32,000 nucleotides of DNA from Cuniculiplasma divulgatum. GTDB lineage: Archaea; Thermoplasmatota; Thermoplasmata; Thermoplasmatales; Thermoplasmataceae. Shown piece after piece: positions 1,153-22,980 of the stretch (its first letter is position 1; every line of letters starts with the position of its first letter). Both the position numbers and the translations under genes were made by a program. Below the pieces are notes generated by a model, which ran no database searches, was not told the origin of the DNA, and saw only the letters and a program-made list of their open reading frames with translations. Location of the stretch: assembly GCF_900083515.1 (NCBI RefSeq), contig NZ_LT671858.1:1050001-1082000 (forward strand), read 5' to 3'.

Positions 1153-1458
1153 TACCGGACGCGCCCAGATTGGGCCTGACGTCCTGCTAAGTTTACCCCT
1201 GAGTTCACTCGACCCCGGTATCCAGCAGCACCAAAAGTTCCACCTACCGTTGCTCCCTTCCGGACCTGGCGGGTTTGGTGAATAAGTTACGGAAAGCATT
1301 TCCTTTGAATTGCTTTCTGTAATCCTCCGATCCGCTGGGCCGAAATCTCATTGATTCCTCAAGGCTTAACAGAGGCCAGGTTGGCCTCTCTGGACTGTCG
1401 TTCCCGCGTATAGGCTTCGGGTAACAGGAAGAGCCTGGCTTCCCAACCTAGTCCGGCT
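1153..1458 (-). ncRNA. Signal recognition particle RNA (archaeal 7S / SRP RNA), ~306 nt
   Basis: This is a GC-rich island in AT-rich DNA. The minus strand reads CCAGGUCCGGAAGGGAGCAACGG, the helix-8 SRP54-binding motif (compare E. coli 4.5S CAGGUCCGGAAGGAAGCAGC). The 5' end GCCGGAC...CCUGUUACCCGAAGC resembles the Alu-domain start (human GCCGGGC...CCUGUAGUCCCAGC). The 5' GCCGGAC pairs with the 3' GUCCGGU to close the molecule. The ends are approximate (+/-10 nt). Confidence 0.85.
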
Positions 1459-14995: not shown

Positions 14996-15003
14996 TGAAA
15001 AAT

Positions 15004-15086
15004 GCGAGGATGGCCCAGCGGTACGGCGGCAGCCTGCTAAGCTGTTTTTCCTATGGAAAGCGTGGGTTCGAATCCCACTCCTCGCG
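15004..15086 (+). tRNA. tRNA-Ser (anticodon GCU)
   Basis: Manual fold: acceptor GCGAGGA/UCCUCGC, anticodon stem GCAGC/GCUGU, loop CUGCUAA, long variable arm UUUCC-UAU-GGAAA, T arm GUGGG-UUCGAAU-CCCAC, discriminator G. No CCA is encoded. Confidence 0.9.
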
Positions 15087-15157
15087 TCTAATGATAATTT
15101 TTTATTAGAAGTTAATCTACAATAACTGTACCTTTTACACGAAACTATAAATGATGG

Positions 15158-18583: not shown

Positions 18584-18657
18584 AGCCGCCGACGGGATTC
18601 GATCCCGCGACCTCGTGCTTACCAAGCACGCGCTCTACCAGGCTGAGCTACGACGGC
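18584..18657 (-). tRNA. tRNA-Thr (anticodon GGU)
   Basis: Manual fold of the minus strand: acceptor GCCGUCG/CGGCGGC, D arm GCUC-AGCCUGGUA-GAGC, anticodon stem CGUGC/GCACG, loop UUGGUAA, T arm GCGGG-AUCGAAU-CCCGU, discriminator U. No CCA is encoded. Confidence 0.9.
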
Positions 18658-19829: not shown

Positions 19830-20789
19830 TCAAATACTGCTTGATCCGTAATAATAAATTCCTCCAATCTCTTTTTTGTCTAATGTCCCTGTACTTTCCA
19901 TATGTCTTAAATGCGATATGGCTTCACCAATTGCAAAGTTGGATTCCATCATATTCATGGATTCCATGGTTCTCCCCTTACTCCAGCGCATTTTGTGTGC
20001 TGTTTCATAGGCTGTCAACCACTTATCCCTAACGAGTTCCATGATTTCATTCATCCTATCACCATGATGTTTTATCAACTGATCTATCCTTTCATTTTGG
20101 TTTCCAAAAGGCTTTCCATGACCCGGGAATGTAGCCTTTACCTTAATGTTTTTAGTCTTGATGAGGCTGGAAAGGTATTCTCCAAGCATATCTTCCTCTT
20201 CGTCGTAATAGCTGATGTTGGGTGTAATTCGTTCTAAAATATGATCACCAGACATTAGAGCGGTACTATCATTTACAAAGTAGCAAGTAGATCCTGGTGA
20301 ATGACCTGGAACATGCAATGTTCTAATTCCATTTGGTAAATTTTTAATTGCTTCGAGAGGCTCCAGTTTAAGGTCCAAATAATTTTTCAACTCCCTGAAC
20401 ACAGGATGACTCTCGGTAAGATTTTCTAAGAATTTATCTGGTACGCCATTCCTTCGTAGGTAATCGATCTGCCATGATATGAAACCTTTAGCTGAGGATT
20501 GAATTGCCTCAATTCGTCTCAAATCTTCCTTTCCTATGTACCCGTTCAGACTGTAATTATTATGTAATTTATTAACTCCCCCTACATGATCTATATGCAG
20601 GTGAGTGAGGAGTACCATGTTTATACTTTCTATGTCAACCCTCTTACTTTCCAGAAATGTATCTATTTGATCATCCATTCCTGTGTCGATTAGAATTTTA
20701 TTTTTACCATCATCAAGAATGTAAATGGAAGCAGTTCTTAAAGCCCTTATGGCAATGGGAATTTCAAATGTGCTGATTTCGAATGTCAT
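19830..20789 (-). CDS. MBL-fold metallo-hydrolase
   Basis: The THLHIDHVGG (HxHxDH) motif is present, with downstream HVPGHSPG and GDH. 319 aa. Confidence 0.8.
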   Translation of the reverse strand: MTFEISTFEIPIAIRALRTASIYILDDGKNKILIDTGMDDQIDTFLESKRVDIESINMVLLTHLHIDHVGGVNKLHNNYSLNGYIGKEDLRRIEAIQSSAKGFISWQIDYLRRNGVPDKFLENLTESHPVFRELKNYLDLKLEPLEAIKNLPNGIRTLHVPGHSPGSTCYFVNDSTALMSGDHILERITPNISYYDEEEDMLGEYLSSLIKTKNIKVKATFPGHGKPFGNQNERIDQLIKHHGDRMNEIMELVRDKWLTAYETAHKMRWSKGRTMESMNMMESNFAIGEAISHLRHMESTGTLDKKEIGGIYYYGSSSI

Positions 20790-20944
20790 GAACTGGTATT
20801 ACGATAAATCTTAAGTTACTTACTAGTTGCTATTTTGTTAAAATATCAAACAGAAATGTGATTATTAAACATTAGAATTTGAATTCCTTAATGCTGACTT
20901 TGAGGGTTGGGATAAATTATAATTTATAATTGGAATACTGGATT

Positions 20945-21388
20945 ATGAAGAGTTTGGTTCCACTTGCTGTTTTTAAGGCAGGGACAAATGTAATTCCATA
21001 TATATCTGCAATCTTCCTTGTAATAGCAGTCATTTTGCCAATCTACTTTTACCCTGGTTATTTTTTGGCAAGTGTCGTAAACTACGCTCCTTTTCTGGTA
21101 CTATCCATCTTTATAATTGGATACAATATTGTACAGTACAGGAAAAGGGCTGACATAGAAATATTTGAAGATAAGATAATCATAGTTACCACAAACAAGA
21201 GATTTAATGTCTACTACAGTGACATACAAGATATTACCAGAGATATGAATGATGGCAAAAAACTGTTCATAATTCAAACCAAGTCTGGTCGTAAAATAGC
21301 GCTATATGACAGAAAATTAATAACATTCAAAACTACATTAATTGACTTTATTAAGAGCAGGACATCGTCAGGACAGGGTCAAAAATAA
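20945..21388 (+). CDS. Membrane protein with two N-terminal TM segments and a C-terminal soluble domain (bacterial-PH/YdbS-like architecture)
   Basis: Hydrophobic N-terminal half, followed by IEIFEDKIIIVTTNKRFNVYYSDIQDI...LFIIQTKSGRKI. The ATG at 20945 follows AAATTATAATTTATAAT (20913-20929). Confidence 0.5.
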   Translation: MKSLVPLAVFKAGTNVIPYISAIFLVIAVILPIYFYPGYFLASVVNYAPFLVLSIFIIGYNIVQYRKRADIEIFEDKIIIVTTNKRFNVYYSDIQDITRDMNDGKKLFIIQTKSGRKIALYDRKLITFKTTLIDFIKSRTSSGQGQK

Positions 21389-21742
21389 AGACCTACCTCT
21401 AAACTCTGGCATATGGTGATCTATTTTTTGATATGCGTGAAAAGTTCTTCTAATTTGGCATCTATATGGACATAATGAAGTTTAAATCATTTAAGAGTTG
21501 ACATAACTATGATTTATTATATGGTTAGACTTACCAGCCCTTGCTTATTATTGATTAATTCCATGACTATATTGATTTTAATATGTTTGTATATTTATAT
21601 TATAAAAATTGCCATACAGACGTACTTATTTAAAAATTGTAAATTATTATTAGAAATGTAATGTATGTTTGTTAAATCCTCTTAATTATTGGTTTTTAAT
21701 TAAAAAATAGAATTATTTACTGTAACAATTTAGACTATTTTT

Positions 21743-21796
21743 GTATATACTTGTGTACAGTCATTTACATAAAATTTATATACCTCCAAGTATATC
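21743..21796 (+). promoter_or_regulatory. Promoter/operator region of the RHH gene: TATA box plus three GTATAT-type half-sites
   Basis: Palindrome GTATATAC at 21743-21750 and palindrome TGTACA at 21754-21759. TATA-like AAAATTTATATA at 21771-21782. Inverted repeat ATATAC (21778-21783) - ctccaa - GTATAT (21790-21795) lies between the TATA box and the ATG at 21811. Confidence 0.45.
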
Positions 21797-21810
21797 TATT
21801 AGAGATAATA

Positions 21811-22230
21811 ATGAATCCTGAATCAAAAGACATTAAGATTACACTAAGGATTTCAGAAGAAGATCTTGACTTGATAGATAGTTTTCTTGAGGAAAACATG
21901 TCTTTTGGAAGTCGATCAGAGTTTCTTAGAAACTGCGCCCTAGATTTTATACAATCTAAGAAAAATTTCAAAGGAATGGATCTGGGAAACGGTATATCCC
22001 TTTCTAAGAAACAGGAAGAATACATTGAACGAATGATAAGAATGGGTTACTATCCATCAAAGGAAGATGCAATTAAGTCGATTCTGGAATATGTTTTTGA
22101 TTCTGGCTTTATAAAAAAGATTTTTGAGGAAAAAATAGAGAAGTATCAGGAAATAGAAAAATCAATGAAATCTAACGAAAGGGTAAGTTTGGTAGACAGG
22201 GATGAAGAAAAAAAATATGGGAGGTATTAG
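21811..22230 (+). CDS. DNA-binding protein with two tandem ribbon-helix-helix-like motifs (CopG-like followed by ParD-like)
   Basis: KITLRISEEDLDLIDSFLEE...GSRSEFLRNCALDFI fits the RHH strand-helix-helix pattern. A second unit, ISLSKKQEEYIERMIRMGYYPSKEDAIKSILEYV, resembles ParD-type antitoxins (xSLxxxxxxFIxxxVxxGRYxSxSEVIRxxLR). The ORF-track TTG start at 21751 is rejected in favour of the ATG at 21811 (139 aa). Confidence 0.6.
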   Translation: MNPESKDIKITLRISEEDLDLIDSFLEENMSFGSRSEFLRNCALDFIQSKKNFKGMDLGNGISLSKKQEEYIERMIRMGYYPSKEDAIKSILEYVFDSGFIKKIFEEKIEKYQEIEKSMKSNERVSLVDRDEEKKYGRY

Positions 22231-22239
22231 GTGATTTAA

Positions 22240-22947
22240 ATGGAGGAAGTAAATAAATTGAACCTGGAGAATGAAAAGCTTGACTCGGTGGAATTGCAGA
22301 CCTACATGCAACAAACTATTGTGCTGATAGGTGACAGAATGAGTGATGTGTATAATGGCCTCATCAAAGCAAATGAAGGAAAGAAGAATGCAATTATCTA
22401 TATCACACAGGAAAAGGAAAGAAAATTGAGTTCCTCAGGAAAACTGAAATACGAGGATTTTAATGATGAATATGATAGTTCCTTTGTAAAGATGACAGAT
22501 AAAGACGGAAATATAATGGACGAAGAGGACGGTGCCAGCAGGATATCTTACCCTGACATTGTACAGGTAAAATTCAGAAATCTATCTTCGGATCGTGAGC
22601 TGAGGCACGCTGCTGAAATTGTATCGGGACTTGTGGATAACAGCTGGGTAACAATAGTTGCAAGTGATCTGTCTGAAGGCTTCGCTAGAAATATACATTC
22701 ATCCTTGGTCTACAGAAGAAAGAAGTTCAATAATTCTGTCGCATCCTTCGTTTTTACAAGAGCAAGCAATCCCACTGATGAATTCAATCTTAAGATAATC
22801 AGAGAAAGTATAAAAAAGAACACTAATAAGTATAAAGAAATAGGCGAAGAGAAAAAAATAAGACACAATATCTTCTCAAAGAAAGGAGAAGAACAGGAAA
22901 TACAGAAGATGATAGCTGAAATCTCAAGTCTGCAGAAGAATTTTTAA
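22240..22947 (+). CDS. Hypothetical protein, 235 aa, no recognised family; C-terminal K/E-rich helical tail
   Basis: Long ORF. The ATG is preceded by AGGTGAT (22229-22235), a 7-nt match to the complement of the conserved 3' end of 16S rRNA, at 4 nt spacing and 9 nt after the RHH stop, so the two genes are probably co-transcribed. No catalytic or NTP-binding motif is visible. The N-terminal TIVLIGDRMSDVYNGLIKANEGKKNAIIYI has the strand-loop-helix-strand rhythm of a P-loop NTPase but lacks GxxGxGK[ST]. Confidence 0.55.
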   Translation: MEEVNKLNLENEKLDSVELQTYMQQTIVLIGDRMSDVYNGLIKANEGKKNAIIYITQEKERKLSSSGKLKYEDFNDEYDSSFVKMTDKDGNIMDEEDGASRISYPDIVQVKFRNLSSDRELRHAAEIVSGLVDNSWVTIVASDLSEGFARNIHSSLVYRRKKFNNSVASFVFTRASNPTDEFNLKIIRESIKKNTNKYKEIGEEKKIRHNIFSKKGEEQEIQKMIAEISSLQKNF

Positions 22948-22950
22948 AAA

Positions 22951-22980
22951 TTTAATTCTACCGATTACCTTAGAATTAAA
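22951..22980 (+). terminator. Perfect 10-bp inverted repeat with 10-nt loop, followed by a T/C-rich run
   Basis: TTTAATTCTA (22951-22960) and TAGAATTAAA (22971-22980) are exact reverse complements, starting 4 nt after the stop of the 235-aa ORF. CTTTCCTTCTTTT follows. The stem is AT-rich, so stability is modest. Confidence 0.3.

What the first reader, a model, noticed from the sequence alone, without database searches (positions are those of the whole stretch)
21389..22980. Orphan two-gene cassette: double-RHH DNA-binding protein SD-coupled to a 235-aa protein of unrecognised family, behind a 420-bp AT-rich spacer
The sequence shows five things. First, the longest non-coding stretch in the window (21389-21810) is extremely AT-rich. 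Second, the first gene is leaderless-style (TATA ~30-40 nt from the ATG) and encodes two consecutive ribbon-helix-helix-like units, one CopG-like and one ParD-antitoxin-like. Third, the second gene starts 9 nt after the first gene's stop, with AGGTGAT matching the complement of the conserved 3' end of 16S rRNA. Fourth, a perfect 10-bp hairpin follows immediately after it. Fifth, the flanks are unrelated housekeeping genes (pyrBI and an MBL hydrolase). The layout, a small RHH autoregulator followed by a larger partner, is that of type II toxin-antitoxin, partition (RHH centromere binder plus NTPase) and some defence modules. However, the partner has no Walker A, nuclease, PIN, kinase or other motif I can recognise. 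Its N-terminal third has the strand-loop-helix-strand rhythm of a P-loop NTPase with the P-loop replaced by GDRMSDV. This is the best candidate in the window for an undescribed regulator-effector pair.
Basis: partly seen in the sequence, partly recalled or inferred. Interest (0 to 1): 0.7.

Follow-up and report, generated by a model that had tools for sequence, protein, structure and literature searches.

The report
RHH regulator plus degenerate FtsZ-like protein
A small DNA-binding regulator and a fast-evolving partner protein sit side by side in acid-loving, wall-less archaea and resemble the archaeal cell-division gene pair cdrS-ftsZ2, except that the FtsZ-like partner has lost its GTP-binding motifs and its C-terminal half; the FtsZ link rests on predicted structure only.

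Summary
A 422-bp spacer (23.7% GC) precedes a near-leaderless 139-aa tandem ribbon-helix-helix (RHH) gene (21811-22230). It is coupled through a Shine-Dalgarno site to a 235-aa gene (22240-22947).

The pair is not an orphan mobile cassette. RHH, partner and convergent pyrI-pyrB are syntenic in about ten lineages of acidophilic Thermoplasmatales, down to 22-28% partner identity. Both genes are under strong purifying selection, and neither has a relative on plasmids or phages.

All 15 RHH homologues hit NCBIfam's CdrS model best. CdrS is the regulator normally encoded upstream of ftsZ2.

The partner has no sequence-detectable family. Two AlphaFold2 models (pLDDT 70-72) both retrieve FtsZ, TubZ or PhuZ as top Foldseek hits in PDB and in BFVD (probability 1.00, TM 0.45-0.56). 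The FtsZ T1 and T4 glycine loops are replaced by family-conserved non-glycine residues, and the T7 loop and C-terminal domain are absent.

Best reading (confidence about 0.5): a derived cdrS-ftsZ-type operon encoding a non-catalytic pseudo-FtsZ. Every sequence-level test of FtsZ homology failed, so an unrelated Rossmann-like partner remains a serious rival. Toxin-antitoxin, defence and partition readings are poorly supported.

The parts
20930..21388 (+). Conserved small 2-TM protein (152-aa ORF; probable start ATG 20945, about 147 aa). It is a frequent upstream neighbour on the same strand; whether it belongs to the module is uncertain.
   Evidence: ORF. Homologues (38-65% identity) occupy the same position in L001, L005, L007, L010 and L012 but not in L008, L016, L017, L019 or L029. 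No family hit.
21389..21810 (.). AT-rich intergenic spacer (422 bp, 23.7% GC). Only the promoter-proximal ~85 nt and one distal block (~21577-21620) are conserved.
   Evidence: no Rfam hit.
21582..21594 (+). Distal copy of the 13-nt motif TATGTTTGTATAT, inside the conserved distal block. Candidate RHH operator (inferred).
   Evidence: (D8). Not enriched window-wide.
21736..21753 (+). Proximal copy TATTTTTGTATAT, overlapping the left arm (ATATACTTG, 21745-21753) of an inverted repeat that brackets the TATA box. Candidate operator (inferred).
   Evidence: D8, I18; conserved block.
21775..21782 (+). TATA box TTTATATA, ending 28 nt upstream of the ATG, which gives a leaderless or near-leaderless mRNA.
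   Evidence: same element at the same distance in L014, L007, L001, L005, L010, L012, L008, L017, L019 and L029.
21787..21795 (+). Right arm CAAGTATAT of the inverted repeat, between the TATA box and the start codon.
   Evidence: I18; GTATAT-type element conserved at this position.
21811..22230 (+). Tandem-RHH protein, 139 aa. RHH unit 1 spans about residues 8-47, RHH unit 2 (CdrS/ParD-like) about residues 61-97, followed by a conserved C-terminal amphipathic helix at about residues 99-120.
   Evidence: (15 of 15 homologues hit the CdrS model best); dN/dS 0.005.
22220..22235 (+). Shine-Dalgarno region for the partner gene: GGAGGT at 22220-22225 and AGGTGAT at 22229-22235, the latter overlapping the RHH stop codon TAG (22228-22230).
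   Evidence: conserved SD or overlap junctions.
22240..22947 (+). Partner protein, 235 aa, with a predicted FtsZ/tubulin-type GTPase-domain fold (S1-S6 plus a long C-terminal helix). It lacks the glycine-rich T1 and T4 loops, the T7 loop and the C-terminal domain. The most conserved block is residues 142-173 (SDLSEGFARNIHSSLVYRR...VASFVFT).
   Evidence: dN/dS 0.033.
22951..22980 (+). Perfect 10-bp AT-rich inverted repeat with a 10-nt loop, followed by a T-rich tract. Weak and not conserved; function doubtful.
   Evidence: (I9).

Best explanation
This is a chromosomal, vertically inherited two-gene operon specific to acidophilic, wall-less Thermoplasmatales. The window comes from G-plasma, i.e. 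Cuniculiplasma.

A promoter whose TATA box ends 28 nt before the ATG gives a leaderless or near-leaderless bicistronic mRNA. The first product is a tandem ribbon-helix-helix DNA-binding protein whose second unit is CdrS-like. It probably forms an intramolecular RHH pseudo-dimer and represses or tunes its own promoter through the GTATAT-type repeats that bracket the TATA box. This regulatory step is inferred.

The second gene is translationally coupled to the first. Its product is predicted to have the fold of the FtsZ/tubulin GTPase domain. It lacks the glycine-rich nucleotide-binding loops, the T7 synergy loop and the whole C-terminal domain. It therefore cannot be a GTP-driven polymerising FtsZ.

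The arrangement (CdrS-like RHH followed by an FtsZ-fold protein) copies the widespread archaeal cdrS-ftsZ2 cell-division locus. I read the partner as a non-catalytic 'pseudo-FtsZ' that acts by binding. It could cap, modulate or scaffold the two canonical FtsZ proteins these organisms also have, or use the remodelled pocket for another ligand.

Shown: gene structure, coupling, synteny, purifying selection, CdrS-model similarity and predicted fold. Inferred: homology to FtsZ, autoregulation and a role in cell division.
For: Synteny. RHH, partner and convergent pyrI-pyrB occur together in every related locus, in about ten lineages. Partner identity ranges from 93% down to 22-28%, and the pair also occurs in a locus whose RHH is only 40% identical.

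Selection. dN/dS against the L014 orthologue is 0.005 for the RHH and 0.033 for the partner, at dS of about 1.

Promoter and coupling. The TATA box position and the SD or overlap junction are conserved.

RHH. NCBIfam's CdrS model is the top family for all 15 homologues, best E 6.9e-12. RHH unit 2 aligns in register (hhalign P 2.8e-4) with an RHH that precedes a bona fide ftsZ on a haloarchaeal replicon. That RHH shows the same hit spectrum: CdrS above NikR and ParD.

Literature. cdrS-ftsZ2 is a conserved co-transcribed locus across Euryarchaeota (PMC7439475). ftsZ2 is usually next to an RHH_1/parD-type gene (PMC9871819; PMC8178401).

Fold. Two AF2 models from different alignments give the same beta-alpha topology (pLDDT 70.4 and 72.2, pTM 0.71 and 0.74). 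Foldseek against PDB gives FtsZ, TubZ or PhuZ as 45 of the top 50 hits for model 2 (best M. jannaschii FtsZ, E 3.3e-4, probability 1.00, TMq 0.55). P-loop GTPases reach only TMq 0.26-0.33. An independent library (BFVD) also puts tubulin and PhuZ on top.

Intermediate. The positional orthologue L029p keeps GKSGKN where FtsZ has GGGGxN, and VVTIPK where FtsZ has VVTKPF. It gives weak, in-register hits to an FtsZ HMM and to the partner-family HMM (empirical P of about 0.004 each).

Conservation. The strongest conservation in the family lies at the S4-T4-H4 position, the equivalent of FtsZ's signature loop.
Against: No sequence method links the partner to FtsZ. Pfam Tubulin (PF00091) is not hit by any of 12 members, even at E up to 10. 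A family profile against all PDB sequences finds nothing. hhalign of the family against an 8-sequence FtsZ alignment gives probability 0.3%, and L029p against FtsZ gives 0.6%.

The AF2 models are of moderate confidence. They come from 9-10 sequences; the other four models of each run score only 36-58 pLDDT, and about 23% of residues are below pLDDT 50. Foldseek E-values are only 1e-3 to 3e-4.

Cuniculiplasma divulgatum already has two canonical, expressed FtsZ proteins, CSP5_0844 and CSP5_1965 (PMC7285479 supplements). The partner is therefore not simply the organism's FtsZ2.

The CdrS match (28.6 bits for the window protein) is far below the model's 100-bit cutoff. The L029 RHH does not hit the model at all.

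The likely C. divulgatum orthologues CSP5_1105-1107 are not found in the held proteome tables. Those files were truncated, so this is inconclusive.

No experimental datum bears on function.
Confidence: 0.5

Rival explanations
1. An RHH transcription factor is paired with a lineage-specific Rossmann-like protein unrelated to FtsZ. This could be a small-molecule sensor or co-regulator subunit, or an enzyme using the invariant Ser142, Asp143 and His153. The FtsZ resemblance would then be generic three-layer alpha/beta similarity or an artefact of a shallow-alignment AF2 model.
For: All sequence and profile tests against FtsZ are negative. The models are only moderately confident. Foldseek also lists other Rossmann-like and GTPase folds at similar E-values, for example 1uqu, Rab and G-alpha proteins, and ShosA. 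The organism already has two canonical FtsZ proteins. The conserved residues at the pocket are polar or charged rather than glycine, as expected for a different ligand or active site.
Against: FtsZ, TubZ and PhuZ dominate both structural libraries with the highest TM-scores and probability 1.00, from two independent alignments. The secondary-structure order matches S1-H1...S6-H7 one for one. The upstream gene is CdrS-like, which is exactly the context of ftsZ2. The L029p intermediate retains FtsZ-like T1 and S5 residues in register.
Confidence: 0.3
2. A type II toxin-antitoxin or abortive-infection/defence pair: an RHH antitoxin and autorepressor followed by a novel 235-aa toxin or effector.
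For: The gene order (RHH first), the tight translational coupling and the probable autoregulatory repeats fit TA architecture. RHH unit 2 weakly matches the ParD antitoxin model.
Against: There are no PADLOC or PHROG hits. No homologue exists on plasmids or phages. The pair has a fixed position next to pyrBI across deep divergence, with no sign of mobility or patchiness. The RHH is far more conserved than the partner (54-90% against 22-66% identity; dN 0.006 against 0.033), the opposite of the usual antitoxin/toxin pattern. No nuclease, PIN, kinase or other toxin motif is present.
Confidence: 0.07
3. A chromosome or element segregation module analogous to ParR-ParM or TubR-TubZ. The RHH protein would bind a centromere-like repeat array in the AT-rich spacer, and the FtsZ/TubZ-fold partner would form the filament.
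For: TubZ and PhuZ are among the best structural matches. Five of 15 RHH homologues weakly match a ParR model (E 0.001). A long AT-rich spacer with a repeated 13-nt motif lies upstream.
Against: The GTP-binding T1 and T4 loops, the T7 loop and the C-terminal domain are all missing, so a cytomotive GTP-driven filament is implausible. There are only two motif copies, with no iterated centromere array and no window-wide enrichment. Most of the spacer is not conserved. The locus is an ordinary chromosomal neighbourhood with no replication or mobile-element genes.
Confidence: 0.06

Closest known systems
Archaeal cdrS-ftsZ2 cell-division locus (Halobacterium salinarum and Haloferax volcanii; conserved across Euryarchaeota)
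   Same: A small RHH regulator lies immediately upstream of, co-oriented with, and co-expressed with an FtsZ-fold protein. The RHH's best profile match is the CdrS model, in 15 of 15 homologues. ftsZ2 loci typically carry an RHH_1/parD-like gene. A real example was fetched here (L031).
   Different: The RHH is a tandem double unit of 139 aa rather than about 60 aa, and it scores far below the CdrS cutoff. The downstream protein is 235 aa, has none of the FtsZ signature motifs, lacks the C-terminal domain and the SepF-binding tail, and is undetectable as FtsZ by sequence. The organism additionally has two canonical FtsZ genes elsewhere, neither with an RHH neighbour by locus-tag adjacency.
FtsZ/tubulin superfamily, including the N-terminal-domain-only FtsZl-1 proteins (Makarova and Koonin 2010, cited in PMC10936438; recalled from the literature, not tested here)
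   Same: The predicted S1-S6 Rossmann-like GTPase-domain topology plus a long core helix. The top structural neighbours are FtsZ, TubZ and PhuZ. Like FtsZl-1, it lacks the canonical C-terminal domain.
   Different: Known members, FtsZl-1 included, keep the glycine-rich GTP-binding loops. Here T1 is G-D-R-M-S-D and T4 is S-D-L-S-E-G-F, both conserved within the family. There is no Pfam PF00091 match.
TubR-TubZ (type III) and ParR-ParM (type II) partition systems
   Same: A small DNA-binding adaptor gene precedes a cytoskeletal-fold protein gene. TubZ and PhuZ are among the structural hits. ParR is an RHH protein, and a ParR model is weakly hit.
   Different: The locus is chromosomal and housekeeping-like, has no centromere array and no nucleotide-binding motifs. 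TubR is a winged-helix protein, not an RHH.
RHH antitoxins of type II TA systems (ParD and CopG families)
   Same: The RHH fold, an autoregulator-first gene order, tight coupling, and a weak ParD model hit.
   Different: No toxin family, no mobility, the reverse conservation pattern, and strictly syntenic vertical inheritance.
Tandem-RHH single-chain DNA binders such as F-plasmid TraY (from general knowledge, not tested here)
   Same: Two RHH units in one polypeptide joined by a variable linker, which would allow an intramolecular pseudo-dimer that recognises an asymmetric site.
   Different: TraY is a relaxosome accessory protein on conjugative plasmids. Only a weak NikA-like Pfam hit (E 0.047) connects the two.

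Membership tests
FtsZ/tubulin family | Match to the Tubulin/FtsZ GTPase-domain profile (Pfam PF00091, TIGR00065) | tested here: not met
   None of 12 family members hits it at E up to 10. The window protein has no hit. hhalign against an FtsZ alignment gives probability 0.3%. A genuine FtsZ (L031) scores 396 bits with TIGR00065.
FtsZ/tubulin family | Glycine-rich nucleotide-binding loops: T1 (GGGGxN) and the T4 signature (GGGTG[ST]G) | tested here: not met
   The structurally equivalent loops read G31-D-R-M34-S-D and S142-D143-L-S-E-G-F148. They are conserved within the family but not glycine-rich. The L029p orthologue keeps a partial T1, GKSGKN.
FtsZ/tubulin family | T7 synergy loop and C-terminal (FtsZ_C) domain | tested here: not met
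   The protein ends at residue 235, directly after the long helix 212-234. There is no PF12327 hit.
FtsZ/tubulin family | Three-dimensional fold of the GTPase domain (S1-S6, H1-H7) | tested here: met
   Two AF2 models were searched with Foldseek against PDB and BFVD. FtsZ, TubZ and PhuZ come top with probability 1.00 and TMq 0.45-0.56. This rests on moderate-confidence predictions only.
FtsZ/tubulin family | GTP binding and hydrolysis, and polymerisation | not testable with these tools
   This needs purified protein.
CdrS (RHH regulator of ftsZ2) | Match to the CdrS profile (NCBIfam NF058555) above its curated cutoff | tested here: not met
   The window protein scores 28.6 bits against a cutoff of 100. 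CdrS is nevertheless the best family for 15 of 15 homologues, best E 6.9e-12. An RHH upstream of a real haloarchaeal plasmid ftsZ is also below the cutoff, at 57.9 bits.
CdrS (RHH regulator of ftsZ2) | Encoded immediately upstream of, and co-transcribed with, ftsZ2 | tested here: inconclusive
   It lies immediately upstream of, and is SD-coupled to, a protein that is FtsZ-like only by predicted fold. Co-transcription was not measured.
CdrS (RHH regulator of ftsZ2) | A single RHH domain of about 60 aa | tested here: not met
   The protein is 139 aa with two RHH units plus a C-terminal helix.
Type II toxin-antitoxin module | A recognisable toxin family or toxic effector domain | tested here: not met
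   Pfam, NCBIfam, PADLOC and PHROGs give no hit for the partner.
Type II toxin-antitoxin module | Patchy, mobile distribution with association to plasmids, phages or genomic islands | tested here: not met
   The synteny is fixed. There are no plasmid or phage homologues.
Type II toxin-antitoxin module | Antitoxin-first, tightly coupled bicistron with an autoregulatory operator | tested here: met
   The gene order and the coupling are shown. The operator is only a candidate.
Partition systems (ParA Walker type, ParM, TubZ) | An NTP-binding motor with intact Walker A or tubulin signature motifs, plus an iterated centromere | tested here: not met
   No such motifs are present. Only two copies of a 13-nt motif exist, and it is not enriched.

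The most novel reading that the evidence does not exclude
The partner is a true, highly diverged FtsZ paralogue that has become a pseudo-GTPase: a 'pseudo-FtsZ' with no GTP-binding loops, no T7 loop and no C-terminal domain. It kept the ancestral CdrS-type regulator, while the two catalytic FtsZ genes of these wall-less acidophiles lost theirs. It would work as a dedicated, transcriptionally controlled cap or modulator of Z-ring dynamics. The clade is one in which division machinery is in flux: different members have 2, 1 or 0 FtsZ genes, with or without a minimal ESCRT system. This would be the first non-catalytic tubulin-superfamily regulator described in archaea.
Probability: 0.33. Interest if true: 0.75.

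Novelty: new variant of a known kind. Interest (0 to 1): 0.5.

Why it matters
Thermoplasmatales are wall-less archaea whose division machinery varies unusually. Published surveys report two, one or no FtsZ genes, with or without SepF and a minimal ESCRT system (PMC10936438, PMC8178401).

A conserved operon that pairs a CdrS-like regulator with a catalytically dead, truncated FtsZ-fold protein would add a regulatory component to that picture. It would also be a natural example of a tubulin-superfamily pseudoenzyme. Cuniculiplasma divulgatum is culturable, so the proposal can be tested directly.

If the fold assignment is wrong, the pair is still a well-defined, strongly selected regulator-partner module of unknown function. 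Its partner family appears limited to a handful of Thermoplasmatales lineages: 6 cluster representatives among 1.84 billion proteins.

Tried and rejected
Family libraries. Pfam, NCBIfam, PADLOC and PHROGs gave only noise for the partner (NPHP3, DUF7147 and AglG at E > 0.02), and the same for all 12 family members.

PDB by sequence. The single sequence gave one spurious histidine-kinase fragment (E 0.002). The family profile gave nothing relevant, and L029p gave nothing.

Exhaustive HMM search of 1.84 billion representatives. It found only the family itself, plus one repetitive 1059-aa protein.

Profile-profile tests. hhalign of the family, and of L029p, against an FtsZ alignment built here from 8 annotated ftsZ genes gave probability below 1%. 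An FtsZ HMM against all members gave only out-of-register noise, except for L029p.

P-loop NTPase reading. Rejected as second best: small GTPases reach only TMq 0.26-0.33, against 0.45-0.56 for FtsZ.

'The partner is the organism's FtsZ2 remnant'. Rejected in its simple form, because C. divulgatum has two annotated, expressed FtsZ proteins.

Non-coding RNA in the spacer. No Rfam hit at E up to 1.

Hairpin as a conserved terminator. It is weak and not conserved.

13-nt motif as a regulon marker. It is not enriched in the window.

FtsZ copy number from published tables. The Makarova 2024 phyletic table was truncated before the Thermoplasmata columns. No Darnell 2020 supplement is held.

Direct BLASTP of the window RHH against a genuine ftsZ-linked RHH gave no alignment. 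Only the profile-level comparison works.
Full report
ANATOMY

The region holds two co-oriented genes. The first is an RHH gene at 21811-22230 (139 aa). Its real start is ATG 21811, because the N-terminus M-N/I-P/S-D/E-S-K-D-I is conserved and several orthologues have stop codons just upstream. The second is a partner gene at 22240-22947 (235 aa).

Upstream lies a 422-bp spacer (21389-21810) at 23.7% GC, against 36.4% for the window. Two gaps look as long or longer by ORF criteria, but each contains an RNA gene: SRP RNA at 1153-1458 and tRNA-Thr at 18584-18657. The spacer is therefore the longest gene-free stretch in the window. It holds no Rfam family.

A TATA box (TTTATATA, 21775-21782) ends 28 nt before the ATG. 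It sits at the same distance in ten orthologous loci. This implies a leaderless or near-leaderless mRNA.

The RHH stop codon TAG (22228-22230) overlaps AGGTGAT (22229-22235), and the partner ATG follows at 22240. Orthologues keep either a 9-11 nt gap with GGTG or GGAGG, or a 4-8 nt overlap of the two genes. Translational coupling is thus a conserved feature.

The perfect 10-bp inverted repeat after the partner gene (22951-22960 / 22971-22980) exists. It is weak: -6.1 kcal/mol, z = -1.75, and 12 of 200 shuffles fold as well. It is absent from orthologues, where the partner stop often abuts the pyrI stop.

The upstream neighbour is not the MBL hydrolase. It is a small 2-TM ORF (20930-21388) that is itself conserved in part of the clade.

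ORGANISM AND DISTRIBUTION

An identical RHH protein is named by NCBI as coming from 'Thermoplasmatales archaeon Gpl'. Gpl is G-plasma, i.e. Cuniculiplasma divulgatum (PMC10936438).

The partner family is very small.
- A word-indexed search of 5.8 billion proteins found 11 proteins.
- An exhaustive HMM search of 1.84 billion representatives found 6 cluster representatives.
- A broader profile added three more proteins.
- Among 185,579 species genomes, 6 loci were found, all Thermoplasmata MAGs. This search was pattern-limited, so 6 is a lower bound.

The pair always occurs together. In every contig that covers the position, the order is RHH, then partner, then convergent pyrI-pyrB. This holds for the following lineages:
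- Cuniculiplasma relatives, with partner identity of 93%, 66% and 62%.
- A lineage at 40% partner identity.
- Three deeper lineages at 22-28% partner identity.

It also holds in a metagenomic locus, L029, whose RHH is only 40% identical. That locus corresponds to AKA49093.1 / IX51_08230, and its RHH neighbour is annotated 'Thermoplasmataceae archaeon'.

The RHH protein is much better conserved than the partner: 54-90% against 22-66% identity. Both are under strong purifying selection. dN/dS against the L014 orthologue is 0.005 for the RHH and 0.033 for the partner, at dS of about 1. Neither protein has any relative on 72,556 plasmids, and the partner has none on 50,697 phages. PADLOC and PHROGs give nothing.

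This is a vertically inherited chromosomal operon, not a mobile cassette.

THE RHH PROTEIN

The alignment of 15 homologues shows four parts:
- An invariant first RHH unit: KITLRIS, then EEDLDxIDSFLE, then G-S/N-RSEFLRNCAL.
- A variable linker of about 15 residues.
- A second unit with the ParD/CdrS-type G-Y-Y-x-S-x-E-D helix cap.
- A conserved amphipathic helix.

Pfam gives only weak hits for unit 1 (RHH_8, NikA-like, DUF6290). NCBIfam's CdrS model is the best hit for the window protein (E 1.1e-6, residues 65-92). It is also the best hit for all 15 homologues (best E 6.9e-12), ahead of NikR, ParD and ParR. All scores are far below the model's 100-bit equivalog cutoff, so this protein is CdrS-like rather than CdrS.

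As a positive control I fetched a haloarchaeal replicon, L031, on which a CopG/RHH gene sits directly upstream of a bona fide ftsZ (TIGR00065, 397 bits). That RHH shows the same hit spectrum: CdrS at 57.9 bits, then NikR and ParD. It aligns in register with unit 2 of our family (hhalign P 2.8e-4). Plain BLASTP between the two proteins finds nothing.

The literature establishes cdrS-ftsZ2 as a conserved, co-transcribed locus across Euryarchaeota (PMC7439475). It also notes that ftsZ2 usually has an RHH_1/parD-type neighbour (PMC9871819; PMC8178401).

THE PARTNER

Sequence methods place the partner nowhere.

Two AlphaFold2 runs used different alignments: A2 with close relatives only, and A5 including members at 22-24% identity. 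Both gave the same topology (pLDDT 70.4 and 72.2; pTM 0.71 and 0.74). Six beta-alpha units are followed by a 23-residue C-terminal helix. Low confidence is confined to the N-terminal 20 residues, an insert at 58-82 and two loops.

Foldseek against PDB returns FtsZ as the dominant hit class for both models. For model 2, 45 of the top 50 hits are FtsZ, TubZ or PhuZ. The best is M. jannaschii FtsZ (E 3.3e-4, probability 1.00, TMq 0.55). P-loop GTPases and other Rossmann folds stay at TMq 0.26-0.33. The independent BFVD library also puts phage tubulin and PhuZ on top.

The secondary-structure elements map one for one onto FtsZ S1-H1-S2-(insert)-S3-H3-S4-H4-S5-H5-S6-H7. On that mapping:
- The T1 loop (FtsZ GGGGxN) is G31-D-R-M34-S-D.
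- The T4 signature (FtsZ GGGTGTG) is S142-D143-L-S-E-G-F148.
- Both loops are conserved within the family. The S4-T4-H4-S5 block (residues 142-173) is the most conserved part of the protein.
- The protein ends after the H7-equivalent helix, so it has no T7 loop, no C-terminal domain and no SepF-binding tail.

That perception was right in kind, but the fold is of the tubulin/FtsZ type rather than the P-loop type.

HOW STRONG IS THE FtsZ LINK?

It is structural only.
- hhalign of the family against an FtsZ alignment I built from eight annotated ftsZ genes gives probability 0.3%.
- An FtsZ HMM gives only out-of-register noise on all main-family members.

The one partial exception is the positional orthologue L029p. 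It keeps GKSGKN at the T1 position and VVTIPK where FtsZ has VVTKPF. It gives weak, in-register matches both to the FtsZ HMM (3.8 bits) and to the partner-family HMM (5.2 bits). The empirical P from 3,000 shuffles is about 0.004 for each. hhalign still rates L029p against FtsZ at only 0.6%.

I therefore treat the FtsZ/tubulin fold as moderately supported and FtsZ homology as plausible but unproven.

One further caveat applies. C. divulgatum has two annotated and expressed canonical FtsZ proteins, CSP5_0844 and CSP5_1965. By locus-tag adjacency neither has an RHH neighbour: the flanks are transketolase and acyl-CoA synthase for the first, and FAA hydrolase and pyrF for the second (PMC7285479 supplements). 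The partner cannot simply be 'the' FtsZ2. If it is homologous to FtsZ, it is an extra, degenerate paralogue that retained, or acquired, the CdrS-type regulator.

The same tables confirm the gene order CSP5_1103 (GT), 1104 (MBL), 1108 (pyrI), 1109 (pyrB), 1110 (TrmI). The pair would therefore be CSP5_1106 and CSP5_1107. Neither appears in the held, truncated proteome tables, which is inconclusive.

MECHANISM PROPOSED

Shown:
- A conserved promoter at leaderless distance.
- Conserved translational coupling.
- Strong purifying selection on both genes.
- A CdrS-like tandem RHH.
- An FtsZ-type predicted fold without nucleotide-binding signatures.

Inferred:
- The tandem RHH forms an intramolecular pseudo-dimer.
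- It binds the GTATAT-type elements that bracket the TATA box. These are the inverted repeat ATATACTTG / CAAGTATAT at 21745-21753 and 21787-21795, and the 13-nt motif TATKTTTGTATAT at 21582 and 21736, the distal copy lying in a conserved block.
- It thereby autoregulates the operon, and possibly other genes.
- The partner, unable to bind GTP in the canonical way or to complete a longitudinal FtsZ interface, acts by binding. It could be a cap, modulator or scaffold for the canonical FtsZs, or a ligand-binding subunit.

The motif is not statistically enriched in the window, so the operator assignment is a lead only.

RIVALS

1. An unrelated Rossmann-like partner, with a misleading fold match (confidence about 0.3). 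This is the main rival, given that every sequence test failed.
2. Toxin-antitoxin or defence (about 0.07). Architecture fits. Mobility, family hits and the conservation pattern do not.
3. A partition-like module (about 0.06). The TubZ-like fold and weak ParR hits fit. There are no nucleotide motifs, no centromere array and no mobile context.

VERDICT

The 'undescribed regulator-effector pair' is real and conserved, but it is best read as a lineage-specific derivative of the cdrS-ftsZ theme rather than an orphan toxin-antitoxin, partition or defence cassette.

Novelty: a new variant of a known kind.

Interest: moderate (0.5). A pseudo-FtsZ under CdrS-type control in a clade with fluid division machinery would interest the archaeal cell-biology field, but the key link rests on moderate-confidence structure prediction.

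Noticed in passing
window 1153-1458 (-), 15003-15088 (+), 18584-18657 (-): Archaeal SRP RNA (Rfam RF01857, 177.9 bits), tRNA-Ser(GCT) and tRNA-Thr(GGT). These fill the other long ORF-free gaps of the window.
   Followed up: yes
window 20930-21388 (+): A small protein with two N-terminal TM helices and a beta-rich C-terminal half, with no family hit. It is conserved directly upstream on the same strand in the Cuniculiplasma clade and in the L010/L012 clade (38-65% identity), but absent in three other lineages that have the pair. It could be a loosely associated third component, for example a membrane partner.
   Followed up: partly
window ~21577-21620: A conserved distal block in an otherwise unconserved spacer (AATATGTTTGTATATTTAT...AAAAATTGCCATACA), shared with L014, L007 and L005. 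It contains a TATA-like run and one copy of the 13-nt motif. It could be a second promoter, a distal operator or a small unannotated transcript.
   Followed up: partly
protein P0010 (ENA contig, 6.8 kb): A 151-aa predicted protein that joins the first ~34 residues of the MBL hydrolase (opposite strand in the window) to the last 117 residues of the partner. It is either a rearranged population variant or an assembly chimera.
   Followed up: no
L029 4992-6161: A more distant version of the pair, in a 'Thermoplasmataceae archaeon' genome (AKA49094.1 and AKA49093.1, 2.2-Mb contig). Its partner keeps FtsZ-like residues at T1 (GKSGKN) and S5 (VVTIPK), making it a possible evolutionary intermediate.
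   Followed up: partly
C. divulgatum S5 genome (literature): CSP5_1965-1966 and CSP5_1107-1109: One canonical ftsZ (CSP5_1965) lies next to pyrF, while the FtsZ-fold partner lies next to pyrI-pyrB. Both FtsZ-type genes thus neighbour pyrimidine-biosynthesis genes. This may be coincidence or a trace of an ancestral arrangement.
   Followed up: no
L031 1006-2700 (Salinibaculum sp. KK48 plasmid NZ_CP129994.1): A haloarchaeal megaplasmid carries its own RHH (111 aa, CdrS-like at 57.9 bits) plus a full-length ftsZ pair. It served here as a control for the cdrS-ftsZ architecture.
   Followed up: partly
window 19830-20789 (-): The MBL-fold hydrolase homologues in related loci carry a precomputed Pfam hit to Anti-Pycsar_Apyc1 (PF23023) alongside Lactamase_B. 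This is probably generic MBL similarity.
   Followed up: no
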